Source: a virus (taxonomy: Duplodnaviria > Heunggongvirae > Uroviricota > Caudoviricetes). Taken from it: a stretch of DNA of 64,000 nt. The position numbers are program-made. Location of the stretch: IMG/VR virus record IMGVR_UViG_2531839664_000027; one strand, written 5' to 3'. Positions 54,001-64,000 of this stretch are shown piece after piece (position 1 is the first letter of the stretch; each line of letters starts with the position of its first letter).

Positions 54001-57000
54001 AGCTAATAATGAGCAGAAAAACCCAACGTTACTCTAAAGAGTTCAAAGCCGAAGCTGTCAGAACGGTTCTTGAAAATCAACTTTCGATCAGTGAAGGCGC
54101 TTCCCGATTATCTCTTCCTGAAGGCACTTTAGGACAATGGGTTACCGCCGCCAGAAAAGGGCTCGGTACTCCTGGTTCCCGCACGGTGGCTGAACTGGAA
54201 TCTGAAATTCTGCAACTGCGTAAGGCGTTAAATGAAGCTCGCCTTGAGCGAGATATATTAAAAAAAGCAACAGCGTATTTTGCACAGGAGTCGCTGAAAA
54301 ATACGCGTTAATCGAACAATGGCGACAACAATTTCCCATTGAAGTGAGGTAGCCTGAGTTTAACGGACACTCCTTCCTGAAATAGAATGGCATCAGAAGG
54401 AGCTAATAATGAGCAGAAAAACCCAACGTTACTCTAAAGAGTTCAAAGCCGAAGCTGTCAGAACGGTTCTTGAAAATCAACTTTCGATCAGTGAAGGCGC
54501 TTCCCGATTATCTCTTCCTGAAGGCACTTTAGGACAATGGGTTACCGCCGCCAGAAAAGGGCTCGGTACTCCTGGTTCCCGCACGGTGGCTGAACTGGAA
54601 TCTGAAATTCTGCAACTGCGTAAGGCGTTAAATGAAGCTCGCCTTGAGCGAGATATATTAAAAAAAGCAACAGCGTATTTTGCACAGGAGTCGCTGAAAA
54701 ATACGCGTTAATCGAACAATGGCGACAACAATTTCCCATTGAAGCGATGTGTCAGGTATTTGGTGTATCCAGGAGCGGTTATTACAACTGGGTACAGCAT
54801 GAACCCTCAGACAGAAAACAAAGTGATGAGCGGCTAAAACTGGAGATTAAGGTGGCACATATCCGCACTCGCGAAACATATGGAACCCGGCGGCTCCAGA
54901 CGGAGCTGGCAGAGAATGGCATCATCGTTGGTCGTGACCGACTGGCACGTCTTCGTAAGGAGCTAAGGCTACGCTGTAAGCAGAAACGCAAGTTCAGAGC
55001 GACTACGAACTCGAACCACAATCTGCCAGTTGCGCCAAATCTGCTGAACCAGACGTTCGCTCCTACAGCACCAAATCAGGTCTGGGTGGCGGACCTGACG
55101 TATGTTGCCACACAGGAGGGATGGTTGTACCTCGCTGGCATCAAAGATGTTTATACGTGCGAAATTGTCGGCTACGCCATGGGAGAGCGCATGACAAAAG
55201 AGCTGACAGGTAAAGCTCTGTTTATGGCGCTCAGGAGCCAGCGCCCACCTGCCGGGCTAATCCACCACTCTGATCGAGGTTCACAGTACTGCGCATACGA
55301 TTACCGGGTCATACAGGAGCAGTTTGGTCTGAAAACATCAATGTCGCGTAAAGGTAACTGTTACGACAACGCTCCGATGGAAAGCTTCTGGGGAACGCTG
55401 AAAAATGAGAGCCTGAGCCACTATCGTTTTAATAACCGGGATGAAGCCATCTCAGTAATACGGGAATACATTGAGATTTTCTACAATCGTCAGCGTCGTC
55501 ACTCTCGTCTGGGGAATATCTCCCCGGCAGCCTTCAGGGAAAAATATCATCAGATGGCTGCTTAAAAAAAGAACAAATGGTAGTGTCCGCTATTGCCAGT
55601 ACACCTCAATCAGAATTACCGGAATGCGTCACTGGGTATGGAGCAGCAGCGACTCCAGTTGCAGAAATACAACCAGCGACGGCTTGAGTATAACGATATG
55701 CTGGCGCGCGATCAGCCTGTGATGGCTGCGCTTGGAAAGGCTGTGGATGCTGGTGATCGGGATGCGGCAATGCATCTTTACGGGCAGTTGTCAGAGGGTA
55801 ATCCGCTGAGGCTGATGGCGAATGATGGCTATGCTGCGAAAGCGGGGCAGGCCGTGAACAACCTGCAAAAAATCTTTGATGACAAGCCGGACAGGGCGAT
55901 CGCTTCACTCAATACCCCGGAAAGTCTTGATGCGCTTTCCGGCGTGTTTGCCCCGGAACTGCAACAGCGTATTGGCATGCCCGATTCAACCGGGAAAAAG
56001 ACAATAAAAGAGGCCAGGATTGGCAGTATCGTACCGGCACAGCAGGAAGGGTACGTACTTATCGGCCTTGATCTCACATACAGCGATGGCTCCACCGCAC
56101 ATAAACCCGTTACGGAATACGGCAGCGCACATCCTGATGATCAAACTGTGCTGGCGGTGCCTGTTGATAAGGCTGTCGCTCTTGTCAGGGATCGCAGTAA
56201 ATTCGCGGAAATTTCGAAAAATTACGGTTATTTCAAGCCGAAGCAGCAGGGACTTTCTGCGGAACAACTTCAGAAAGGAGCCAGCCAGGTAGCGATAAAA
56301 GTTGCACAGGACGGTGGTGATGCACAGGGAGCCGTGACGCAATATTACGCCTCGATGGGACTGCCGCAGTATCAGCAGAAAATTCAGCAGCAAAAAATTC
56401 AACAAGTGATTACCAGTTGGGCGGGTGATGATCCGGATAAGCAGGCATTCGCCAGAGAAGTGGCCTCCCGTCAGCCAGAAATGCTGGAGCCTCAGAATCA
56501 GAAATTGCTGGAAAACGGGTATGCGAATTTTCTCCGTATTCAAAAGGCTAAGAGTGAACAGGCCAGAGATGATAGCGCAGCCTCTGCATCTGAGTTTATC
56601 CGTGGACTGAAACAGAATTACGCGCAGTAATTCACCATTCCCGTTAATACCATTTCCTGATACCCGGTCATTGTGCCGGGTTTTTTTATGGAGTCTGTAT
56701 GGCTTTTTCAGATGAACAGCGCCCTGAAGCGCAATTGGGTAACCAGAACCGTAACAGCCTGAACATTCAGCAGCCTGGCGAGACAGACAGCTATGATGCG
56801 TTTTTCTCCGACCCCAATCGCTGGAAGGATAACAGCACGTCGTTCAGCCTGGGCGATGTATTACCAACTATAGGGAAGGGGGCCGCTCAGTCCGTCCGCG
56901 GAACAGGGGAAATGGCCCGTGGACTCGGTGATGCGATGATTCAAAGCCCAGTGAAAACAGGGGCGCGTATTTTAAATGAGTTCAGCCGTATGGGGCTGCC

Positions 57001-63000: not shown

Positions 63001-64000
63001 ACAGGACCTGAGCGAATCGCTGATCCGCCATCGCAAAAACGAAGTGGGTAACGCCTTCCTGAAACTGGTGCAGGATAATCCCGACAAGGATTACTGGCAG
63101 GTATTCACCGATGACAGACCGGATACCATGCGGACGATTGCAGAGCGCAAGGACCAGGAAACTGGTGAAACCATTCGCGAAGTTGTCGAACGCCCTGTAC
63201 CGATGGCAATGATGGCAGACCGGTACTTCACCACCAAAAAGAACGGCAAAACGTACTACATCAAACTCCATGATCCGCGCCTGATGCGTGCGATGAAGAA
63301 TATGGGACCGGAAACCAGTAACGCCGTAATCCGCACGCTGGGGAAAGTTAACCGCTTCCTGGCAACGGTGAACACGTCGTATAACCCGGAATTCCTGGTC
63401 AGTAACTTCATCCGTGACGTGCAGACGGCGGTGATGAACCTGAAGGCGGAGCAGGGAAGGAGCGACGGCAAACTGAAAGGGCTGGATAACTTATCCGCAC
63501 TGGCTGTGGTGAAAGACAGCCGGTCTGCCATGTCTGCCGTATACGCCAGTCTGCGTGGTAAAACCCTCACGGGCAACGGTGCGCAGTGGCAGAAGGTGTG
63601 GAAAGAGTTTGTTGAGGACGGAGGTAAAACCGGCTGGTTTAACATGGGTGACCTTGAAGGCCAGCAGAAGGAAATGGATCGCCTTGTATCGCTGGCGAAG
63701 GGAGGATGGAAAGGCCAGAGTATCGGTGCATGGAATTCGTTCCTTAACCTTGTCGAGGATGCCAACGGGGCGGTTGAAAACGCTCTGCGTCTTTCTGCCT
63801 ATAAACACGCCCGTGATGCCGGTTTGTCACGCCAGCAGGCGGCGTCTCTTGCCAAAAACATGACGGTGAACTTTAACCGTCGTGGTGAGCAGGGAGCGCT
63901 GATGAACTCGCTGTACATGTTCGCCAACGCCAGCATTCAGGGGACCGCAAACCTGGTGAGAACGCTCGGACATCTTAATGGCGACGGGCCGTTACTGGAG

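What the first reader, a model, noticed from the sequence alone, without database searches (positions are those of the whole stretch)
56699..64000. Giant virion ORF with two zincin-like HExxH motifs, open to the window edge
An uninterrupted frame of at least 2,434 codons begins at 56699 with a good RBS after a terminator and continues past the window. It contains ALAHEWFHSLD and LRHEIIHHAMEH, suggesting one or two metallopeptidase-like domains inside a huge multi-domain protein. Giant multi-domain proteins in phages and conjugative elements are often injected 'polyvalent' proteins that counter host defences; the domain make-up of this one is not evident from sequence alone.
Basis: partly seen in the sequence, partly recalled or inferred. 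Interest (0 to 1): 0.5.

Follow-up and report, generated by a model that had tools for sequence, protein, structure and literature searches.

The report
Stx-phage giant virion polyvalent protein

Summary
An ATG at 56699 with a GGAG RBS, after a terminator-like hairpin, opens 2,434 stop-free codons that run off the window. Both HExxH motifs exist (0.03 expected by chance).

The window is a 933W/phi24B-type Stx2a prophage. The full gene has 2,791 codons, is the last prophage gene, and is named 'LPD38 domain-containing protein' in RefSeq. It is 95% identical to phi24B vb_24B_48 (called gp47 in the preprint), which proteomics found in virions.

Layout:
- N-terminal module
- about 600 aa of low-order linker
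- LPD5
- zincin 1 (CLCA_X / lethal-factor-like; HExxHxxD; Pfam LPD1 is its C-terminal part)
- zincin 2 (HExxxH clade)
- MuF-C (PBECR RNase-like)
- about 900 aa of helical LPD38 carrier

Refinements found here:
- The N-terminal module heads 68 clusters of giant proteins.
- Zincin 2 occurs in 63 of them, about 984 residues from the C-terminus.
- These proteins almost lack cysteine (8 in 201,045 residues).

It is best read as a capsid-packed, ejected, self-processing polyvalent protein. This is already known in kind. Its biochemical function has not been tested.

The parts
56662..56688 (+). Terminator-like hairpin (7-bp stem) plus T7 run, downstream of the preceding gene
56690..56693 (+). GGAG ribosome-binding site, 5 nt before the ATG
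56699..64000 (+). First 2,434 of 2,791 codons of the giant polyvalent protein gene (RefSeq WP_000885695.1, 'LPD38 domain-containing protein'). The last 357 codons lie beyond the window.
56711..58018 (+). N-terminal module (aa ~5-440, core 170-440). It is Gly/Ala-rich, has one weakly hydrophobic segment at aa 181-199, and has no Pfam family. It is found at the N-terminus of 68 representative giant proteins.
58019..59818 (+). Pro/Glu/Arg/Ala-rich segment with few order-promoting residues (aa 441-1040), a probable flexible linker. It is under purifying selection (dN/dS 0.17).
59843..60292 (+). LPD5 domain (aa 1049-1198)
   Evidence: (E 4e-43); modelled at high pLDDT
60293..61024 (+). Zincin 1 (aa 1199-1442), of the CLCA_X / lethal-factor-like metallopeptidase type. 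HEWFH is at nt 60542-60556. H1261, E1263, H1282, E1283, H1286, D1289, E1373, R1377 and E1380 are invariant. Pfam LPD1 (nt 60773-61012) covers its C-terminal part.
61061..61618 (+). Zincin 2 (aa ~1455-1640), of the HExxxH-clade polyvalent-protein metallopeptidase type. HEIIHH is at nt 61343-61360.
61940..62209 (+). MuF_C domain (aa 1748-1837), which Iyer et al. class as PBECR RNase-like. It is not a metallopeptidase.
62351..64000 (+). Start of the conserved C-terminal carrier module (aa 1885-2791 in the full protein). It is mostly alpha-helical. The LPD38 domain proper (aa 2474-2679) lies beyond the window edge.

Best explanation
The ORF encodes a virion-packaged polyvalent protein of a short-tailed Stx2a phage of the 933W/phi24B type.

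Shown here:
- The protein has a constant 'chassis'. This is an N-terminal module, an HExxxH-clade zincin (zincin 2) about 1,000 residues from the C-terminus, and a ~900-aa helical C-terminal carrier that ends in LPD38.
- Into this chassis is inserted a cargo block: LPD5 plus a CLCA_X / lethal-factor-like zincin (zincin 1 with LPD1), and a MuF-C (PBECR RNase-like) domain.

Shown in the literature for the 95%-identical orthologue:
- The protein is abundant in purified virions but invisible in the cryo-EM map.

Inferred:
- It is packed inside the capsid and leaves through the tail in an extended state at infection. The near-total lack of cysteine would suit passage through the oxidising periplasm without disulfide trapping.
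- The carrier and N-terminal module serve packaging and ejection.
- The zincin domains cut the polyprotein into its working parts, or cut host proteins, once inside the cell.
- LPD5, zincin 1 and the PBECR domain act on early host targets.
For: Identity and context:
- The DNA is 100% identical to many Stx2a phage records.
- It is the last prophage gene before the host genes.
- It is 95% identical to phi24B vb_24B_48, with the same synteny.
- Virion proteomics exist for phi24B gp47.

Domains:
- Pfam finds LPD5, LPD1, MuF_C and LPD38. NCBIfam finds CLCA_X.
- The zincin 1 residues are invariant.
- Its profile hits lethal factor, sharing the HExxHxxDxY signature.

Chassis:
- The carrier occurs with different cargo (ART, zeta toxin, GNAT, methyltransferase) and also alone.
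- The N-terminal module is at the N-terminus of all 68 giants that carry it.
- Zincin 2 is present in 63 of the 68, at a median of 984 residues from the C-terminus, with an HExxxH motif in 56 of 63.
- Cysteine: 0 in 2,791 residues (P about 3e-11) and 8 in 201,045 residues across the giants.

Other support:
- Purifying selection, dN/dS 0.16.
- LPD38-bearing giants are virion-associated in Bcep22-like podoviruses, whose portal, capsid and head-closure proteins resemble those of 933W. One such giant is needed for efficient infection by coliphage PTXU04.
- Iyer et al. describe both metallopeptidase clades and propose self-processing.
Against: - No experiment shows proteolysis, self-cleavage, ejection or any host target for this protein or its orthologues.
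- Direct evidence for zincin 2 alone is weak: the profile against IrrE gives E 0.24, Pfam M76 gives E 0.21, and H1553 is kept in only 24 of 40 aligned homologues.
- The carrier has no informative structural relative, so its role rests on context only.
- The LPD38-type carrier was detected in only about half of the 68 giants. At least one of the others (P0306) carries LPD39 instead.
- The MuF_C region is modelled at only pLDDT 50-70, and its catalytic residues were not checked.
- The gene is interrupted by an IS-sized insertion in one deposited Stx2a phage, so it is dispensable for a lysogen at least.
Confidence: 0.62

Rival explanations
1. It is a structural ejection protein. It forms a conduit across the periplasm, and its metallopeptidase digests peptidoglycan. 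This is the proposal made for phi24B gp47.
For: The phi24B preprint finds the orthologue abundant in virions and absent from the map, and proposes this role. The C-terminal ~900 aa is a large helical module conserved across podophage giants. An LPD38 giant is needed for infection in PTXU04.
Against: The preprint ascribes the metallopeptidase activity to MuF-C, which Iyer et al. classify as a BECR-fold RNase-like domain. The real HExxH domains resemble lethal factor, MtfA, PPEP and IrrE-type endopeptidases, not the M23, M15 or lytic-transglycosylase wall enzymes. No Pfam wall-hydrolase domain was found. The same LPD5-zincin 1-LPD1-zincin 2 cassette occurs alone in a conjugative element that has its own M23 peptidase. 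The conduit part of this proposal is compatible with the best explanation; only the peptidoglycan part is disfavoured.
Confidence: 0.2
2. The zincins are host-directed effectors, like toxin proteases, that cut host defence or housekeeping proteins. They are not self-processing enzymes.
For: Zincin 1 is closest to lethal factor, MtfA and Pro-Pro endopeptidases, which cleave other proteins. The LPD5-zincin 1-LPD1 cassette is optional (20 of 68 giants) and is shared with conjugative elements, as expected of cargo. Iyer et al. list this as a possibility.
Against: No target is known. Zincin 2 sits at a fixed distance from the C-terminus in 63 of 68 giants whatever the cargo. That pattern fits a processing role at the cargo-carrier junction better than a host-directed one.
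Confidence: 0.13
3. It is a DarB-type anti-restriction protein that modifies or shields the incoming DNA.
For: A PHROG family labelled 'DarB-like antirestriction' matches aa 2349-2429. Bcep22/JC1 'DarB-like' giants end in LPD38. Other giants with the same N-terminal module carry helicase or methyltransferase domains.
Against: No methyltransferase or helicase domain was found in this protein by Pfam, NCBIfam or PADLOC. The PHROG match lies only in the shared carrier region, not in the catalytic part of DarB.
Confidence: 0.05

Closest known systems
phi24B vb_24B_48 (gp47 of the 2026 cryo-EM and proteomics preprint), with the equivalent giant ORFs of 933W, Sp5 and other Sepvirinae Stx phages
   Same: It is 95% identical over the full length. 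It has the same position as last gene and the same LPD5, LPD1, MuF_C and LPD38 calls.
   Different: Essentially an allele. In this window the gene just upstream is split by an IS600 copy.
Phage-type polyvalent proteins (Iyer, Burroughs, Anand, de Souza, Aravind 2017, PMC5512222)
   Same: It is a large multi-domain protein encoded with virion genes. It has one or more zincin-like metallopeptidase domains, LPD domains and a PBECR domain. Both metallopeptidase variants seen here are described there: one with a His at the end of strand 2 and an Asp three residues after HExxH, and one with HExxxH.
   Different: That survey does not mention Stx phages. It does not describe the N-terminal module, the fixed position of the HExxxH zincin, or the lack of cysteine.
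CLCA_X predicted metalloprotease family (Lenart et al. 2013, PMC3650047; NCBIfam NF041907)
   Same: Zincin 1 matches the model over 243 of its 250 positions at E 1e-43. It has the HExxH-then-Asp signature and, like many family members, sits in a long phage protein.
   Different: The score of 149 bits is below NCBIfam's cutoff of 260. It is therefore a related domain embedded in a giant protein, not a member of the stand-alone ~250-aa family.
Anthrax lethal factor, MtfA and Pro-Pro endopeptidase gluzincins (MEROPS M34/M90)
   Different: Sequence identity is only 12-14% and the profile E-value is 0.02. No activity has been shown, and it is embedded in a polyprotein.
Bcep22/JC1 'DarB-like' 4,500-aa virion protein, and PTXU04_00025
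   Same: They are giant proteins of podoviruses with a C-terminal LPD38. They are virion-associated (Bcep22/JC1) or needed for infection (PTXU04).
   Different: Their cargo is a lytic transglycosylase, a methyltransferase, a helicase and LPD3. This protein carries LPD5, zincin 1 and MuF_C instead.

Membership tests
Phage-type polyvalent protein (Iyer et al. 2017) | Large protein that combines several unrelated domains, including LPD families | tested here: met
   Pfam finds LPD5, LPD1, MuF_C and LPD38 above the gathering scores.
Phage-type polyvalent protein (Iyer et al. 2017) | One or more zincin-like metallopeptidase domains | tested here: met
Phage-type polyvalent protein (Iyer et al. 2017) | Encoded among virion genes and packaged in the virion | tested here: met
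   The gene follows the tail and internal-virion genes on the same strand. Packaging rests on published proteomics of the 95%-identical orthologue, not on this sequence.
Phage-type polyvalent protein (Iyer et al. 2017) | Delivered into the host cell at infection, where it acts early | not testable with these tools
   Indirect only: lack of cysteine and absence from the cryo-EM map.
Gluzincin metallopeptidase (zincin 1; CLCA_X / lethal-factor-like) | HExxH on the active-site helix | tested here: met
   H1282, E1283 and H1286 are invariant in 48 of 48.
Gluzincin metallopeptidase (zincin 1; CLCA_X / lethal-factor-like) | Third zinc ligand (Glu) on a downstream helix | tested here: inconclusive
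   E1373 and E1380 are invariant and lie on a predicted helix inside Pfam LPD1. The model coordinates could not be inspected for geometry.
Gluzincin metallopeptidase (zincin 1; CLCA_X / lethal-factor-like) | Zincin fold (three-stranded sheet plus active-site helices) | tested here: met
Gluzincin metallopeptidase (zincin 1; CLCA_X / lethal-factor-like) | Zinc-dependent peptidase activity | not testable with these tools
   No biochemical data found.
NCBIfam NF041907 CLCA_X (as a curated family) | Score above the curated cutoff of 260 bits | tested here: not met
   149 bits, E 1e-43. It is homologous but not a member of the stand-alone family.
HExxxH-clade polyvalent-protein metallopeptidase (zincin 2) | HExxxH (or HExxH) motif on a helix, preceded by a strand-turn-strand | tested here: met
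   HEIIHH reads as both forms. 56 of 63 related giants have HExxxH, with consensus LRHEvLvHHGL. Strands precede the helix in the model.
HExxxH-clade polyvalent-protein metallopeptidase (zincin 2) | Independent fold or profile link to known zincins | tested here: inconclusive
MuF-C / PBECR RNase-like domain | Match to Pfam PF18819 and a helix followed by four strands | tested here: met
   E 1e-17. The model shows helices then four strands, at pLDDT 50-70.
MuF-C / PBECR RNase-like domain | Catalytic His on the N-terminal helix and Ser/Thr on strand 4 | not tested
   Candidate residues exist (H1750 in GVKHVV; Ser in KVASVYG) but were not aligned to the published active site.
P1 DarB-type anti-restriction protein | DNA methyltransferase and helicase domains | tested here: not met
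   None found by Pfam, NCBIfam or PADLOC. The PHROG 'DarB-like' match covers only the carrier region.
Virion peptidoglycan hydrolase (M23, M15, lytic transglycosylase) | A recognisable wall-hydrolase domain | tested here: not met

The most novel reading that the evidence does not exclude
The cysteine-free giants may form one modular protein-delivery chassis of 933W/Bcep22-type podoviruses. The chassis would consist of an N-terminal module, an HExxxH zincin about 1,000 residues from the C-terminus, and an LPD38-type or alternative carrier. In this reading the chassis is the essential ejection apparatus, cargo domains are swapped in between the N-terminal module and the zincin, and the zincin cuts the cargo from the carrier after ejection. 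That would be a defined, engineerable rule for what a phage injects along with its DNA.
Probability: 0.3. Interest if true: 0.6.

Novelty: already known. Interest (0 to 1): 0.3.

Why it matters
Stx phages spread Shiga toxin genes, and this single gene takes up about 13% of the phage genome. The orthologue is abundant in virions, yet its function is unknown.

This analysis locates the real metallopeptidase domains at aa 1199-1442 and about 1455-1640. It shows that Pfam LPD1 is part of the first zincin. It also shows that MuF-C is not a peptidase. Together these points correct a recent functional proposal and tell experimenters which residues to mutate: E1283 and E1550.

The chassis-and-cargo layout and the extreme lack of cysteine are testable clues to how large proteins are injected through a short tail. 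In kind, however, the finding is an annotated member of a described protein class.

Tried and rejected
- Sequence search of the whole protein against PDB: only noise.
- PADLOC defence models: no hit.
- Pfam on tiles at E <= 10: no extra domains in aa 1-1000, 1435-1747 or 1838-2434. Only chance-level M76, DEK_C and WXG100 hits appeared.
- Foldseek of model 1 against PDB: nothing at E <= 0.001, although the weak top hits were zincins.
- hhalign of zincin 1 against zincin 2: 17% probability, so an internal duplication cannot be claimed.
- Carrier-module profile against PDB sequences: noise.
- Word-indexed homologue search with the N-terminal 450 aa: only close enterobacterial orthologues. The exhaustive HMMER search was needed to reach distant relatives.
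- The Pectobacterium protein that seemed to be a natural 'split' lacking the carrier is a deletion remnant in a decayed prophage, followed by a 45-aa LPD38 fragment. It is not evidence for separate genes.
- DarB-type anti-restriction and peptidoglycan-hydrolase readings: rejected for lack of the defining domains.
- One Pfam call failed because a protein exceeded 5,000 residues.
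Full report
OBSERVATION

The frame that opens at 56699 is real. The ATG is at 56699-56701 and GGAG lies five bases upstream. There are 2,434 codons without a stop up to the window edge, while the other two frames of the same stretch hold 86 and 220 stops. A seven-base-pair G+C-rich hairpin at 56662-56681 followed by seven T matches a terminator pattern. One such match in 1.7 kb is no more than shuffled sequence gives. Both quoted motifs are present, with HExxH at residue 1282 (ALAHEWFHSLD) and at residue 1549 (LRHEIIHHAMEH). For this composition about 0.03 HExxH are expected, and none of 2,000 shuffles gave two. 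Neither motif lies in low-complexity sequence.

WHERE IT COMES FROM

The 7.3 kb is 100% identical to dozens of deposited Stx2a-converting phages of the subfamily Sepvirinae. It matches 186 phage records at 90% identity or more and prophages in 426 of 5,426 complete E. coli genomes.

In a 100%-identical record the gene runs on to 2,791 codons, so the window holds 87% of it. In E. coli O121 RM8352 it is the last prophage gene before the host gene yfdC, and RefSeq names it 'LPD38 domain-containing protein'.

It is 95% identical over its full length to vb_24B_48 of phage phi24B, which has the same position and neighbours. A 2026 preprint on phi24B calls this protein gp47. It reports the protein as abundant in purified virions by mass spectrometry and absent from the cryo-EM map, lists LPD5, LPD1, LPD38 and MuF-C, and proposes that it is an encapsidated ejection protein.

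DOMAIN LAYOUT

Pfam gives LPD5 (aa 1049-1198, E 4e-43), LPD1 (1359-1438, E 7e-24), MuF_C (1748-1837, E 1e-17) and, beyond the window, LPD38 (2474-2679, E 8e-49). NCBIfam CLCA_X covers aa 1180-1435 at E 1e-43, which is below its curated cutoff. PADLOC and PDB sequence searches give nothing. Tiled Pfam scans add nothing for aa 1-1000, 1435-1747 or 1838-2434.

FIRST HExxH (ZINCIN 1, aa 1199-1442)

The motif lies between Pfam LPD5 and LPD1, where Pfam has no model. In a 48-sequence alignment of homologues that are 30-47% identical, the following are invariant: H1282, E1283, W1284, H1286, D1289, the upstream H1261 and E1263, and the downstream E1373, R1377 and E1380. The last three lie inside Pfam LPD1. 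LPD1 is therefore the C-terminal part of this peptidase domain and probably supplies the third metal ligand; that last point is inference.

A profile of the domain hits the catalytic core of anthrax lethal factor (E 0.02). The two share an extended signature, HEWFHSLDNYFG against HEFGHAVDDYAG.

Two papers had already described this domain type. Lenart et al. 2013 defined CLCA_X as a predicted zincin family of phages and plasmids with a conserved Asp after HExxH, often found in proteins longer than 1,000 residues. Iyer et al. 2017 describe a phage-type metallopeptidase clade with a His at the end of strand 2 and an Asp three residues after HExxH. These match H1261 and D1289.

SECOND HExxH (ZINCIN 2, aa ~1455-1640)

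This domain is less conserved in the first alignment: H1549 in 36 of 39, E1550 in 32 of 39, and H1553 in 24 of 40. Direct links to known zincins are weak: IrrE E 0.24, Ste24 E 0.66 and Pfam M76 E 0.21.

The wider family settles the matter. Among 63 giant proteins that carry this domain, 56 have HExxxH, with the consensus LRHEvLvHHGL. This is the HExxxH variant that Iyer et al. describe. The Stx-phage version, HEIIHH, is one residue shorter and reads as both HExxH and HExxxH. The two zincin domains are not demonstrably duplicates of each other (hhalign probability 17%).

MuF-C

Iyer et al. classify MuF-C as a phage BECR-fold (PBECR) RNase-like domain, not a peptidase. The model shows helices followed by four strands there, at modest confidence. 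The statement in the phi24B preprint that MuF-C is the metallopeptidase, and the peptidoglycan-cutting role built on it, therefore do not fit. The real HExxH domains lie elsewhere in the protein, and they resemble endopeptidases rather than wall hydrolases.

THE C-TERMINAL CARRIER

From about aa 1885 to the end, the protein matches more than 80 proteins at 26-56% identity, with a sharp common start at aa 1875-1898. These proteins carry quite different N-terminal domains: ADP-ribosyltransferase PF18760, zeta toxin, GNAT, methyltransferase and HTH. Some consist of the ~900-980-aa module alone.

The module is modelled with confidence (pTM 0.73, mostly pLDDT above 80) and is largely helical. It has no informative relative among solved structures.

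Literature links the C-terminal LPD38 domain to virions and to infection. The 4,515-aa 'DarB-like' protein of Bcep22-like podovirus JC1 ends in LPD38 and is found in virions. The portal, capsid and head-closure proteins of that phage resemble those of 933W. In coliphage PTXU04, a 2,198-aa LPD38 protein is needed for efficient infection.

THE N-TERMINAL MODULE AND THE CHASSIS

An exhaustive HMMER search with aa 1-450 found 108 representative proteins. Of these, 68 are giants of 1,500-5,500 residues, and every one carries the match at its N-terminus.

In these 68 giants:
- Zincin 2 is present in 63, at a median of 984 residues from the C-terminus (10th-90th percentile 908-1,170).
- Zincin 1 is present in only 20.
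- An LPD38-type carrier is detected in about 35. One giant without it, P0306, has LPD39 just after zincin 2.
- Cargo in the sampled members includes a Strawberry-notch-type helicase and a methyltransferase.

So the protein reads as a constant chassis (N-terminal module, zincin 2, carrier) with exchangeable cargo. Here the cargo is LPD5 with zincin 1 and LPD1, plus MuF-C. A stand-alone 874-aa protein with LPD5, zincin 1, LPD1 and zincin 2 sits in a conjugative element next to TraG, TrbL and a MobA/MobL relaxase. This matches the shared phage and plasmid use of these domains that Iyer et al. describe.

CYSTEINE

The 2,791-aa protein has no cysteine. Other genes of this phage average 0.87% cysteine, which gives P about 3e-11. 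The 68 giants together have 8 cysteines in 201,045 residues, and 62 have none. Carrier homologues are nearly all cysteine-free as well. I have seen no mention of this in the papers read. It fits a protein that must stay extended and pass through the oxidising periplasm, but that is inference.

SELECTION

Against phi24B, dN/dS is 0.16 overall. It is 0.17 in the linker and 0.06 in the first part of the carrier, so the whole frame is a constrained gene. dS varies from 0 to 0.47 between segments, which points to recombination within the gene.

MECHANISM

The following is shown. It is a multi-domain polyvalent protein with two zincin-type domains, encoded last in the late region. Its near-identical orthologue is in virions.

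The following is inferred. The protein is packed in the head. It is ejected ahead of or along with the DNA. The carrier and N-terminal module serve packing and ejection. Zincin 2 cuts at the cargo-carrier junction. LPD5, zincin 1 and the PBECR domain act on early host targets.

Among the rivals, the conduit part of the 'peptidoglycan-cutting conduit' proposal is compatible with this reading, but its peptidase assignment is not. A host-directed protease role for zincin 1 is quite possible. A DarB-type role lacks the defining domains.

VERDICT

The protein is an allele of an annotated, published Stx-phage protein and belongs to a described class, so it is already known in kind.

The useful additions from this analysis are:
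- the correct placement of the two peptidase domains;
- the reading of LPD1 as part of zincin 1;
- the correction of the MuF-C label;
- the chassis layout, with zincin 2 at a fixed distance from the C-terminus;
- the near-absence of cysteine across the family.

Noticed in passing
window 53698-56630 (IS at about 53943-55608): An IS600 (IS3-family) copy splits the gene just upstream of the giant ORF. That gene is intact (421 aa) in phi24B as vb_24B_47. Here its N-terminal part is at 53698-53952 and its C-terminal part at 55593-56630. This prophage may therefore be defective if that gene is needed.
   Followed up: partly
window 53943-54746, compared with window about 5153-6418: The IS600 copy next to the giant gene carries a 402-bp tandem duplication of its first 402 bp (53943-54344 repeated at 54345-54746), which gives two identical 100-aa ORFs. 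A second IS600 copy near 5.15-6.42 kb is 99.9% identical and lacks the duplication. The RM8352 prophage also lacks it, since its spacing is 400 bp shorter.
   Followed up: partly
L008 (LC616040, Stx2_3993), at nt 6410 of the giant gene (codon ~2137): In this deposited Stx2a phage the giant gene is interrupted by a 1,310-bp insertion with a 3-bp target duplication. The size is that of an IS (it matches IS629 from memory, not verified). The gene is therefore dispensable for maintaining a lysogen.
   Followed up: partly
window 52324-52977, 52980-53426, 55593-56630: The three genes just upstream of the giant ORF also encode cysteine-free proteins (217, 148 and 345 aa). The phage average is 0.87% cysteine. 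They may be co-packaged or co-ejected internal proteins.
   Followed up: no
window 56699-64000, compared with L005 29149-37569: Synonymous divergence from phi24B is very uneven along the gene. dS is 0 in zincin 2 and the LPD38 part, 0.08-0.16 in the middle, 0.33 in the N-terminal module and 0.47 around MuF_C. This indicates recombination mosaicism inside the gene.
   Followed up: partly
L003 (Pectobacterium carotovorum, JAAKYW010000002) 8001-14036: A decayed relative has a 1,277-aa protein that matches aa 1-1881, followed by a 45-aa LPD38 fragment. The upstream synteny is the same, and a ferredoxin-colicin M-like gene lies just downstream at the prophage end.
   Followed up: no
L004 (Amphritea MAG) 8001-10946: A solo 981-aa carrier and LPD38 protein sits in the early or lysogeny region of a prophage, between recombination genes and an S24 repressor, rather than among tail genes.
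   Followed up: no
window 60773-61012 (Pfam LPD1) and literature: The Pfam LPD1 model covers only the C-terminal part of zincin 1 and misses the HExxH helix. The phi24B preprint labels MuF-C as the metallopeptidase. Both could mislead annotation of this protein family.
   Followed up: yes
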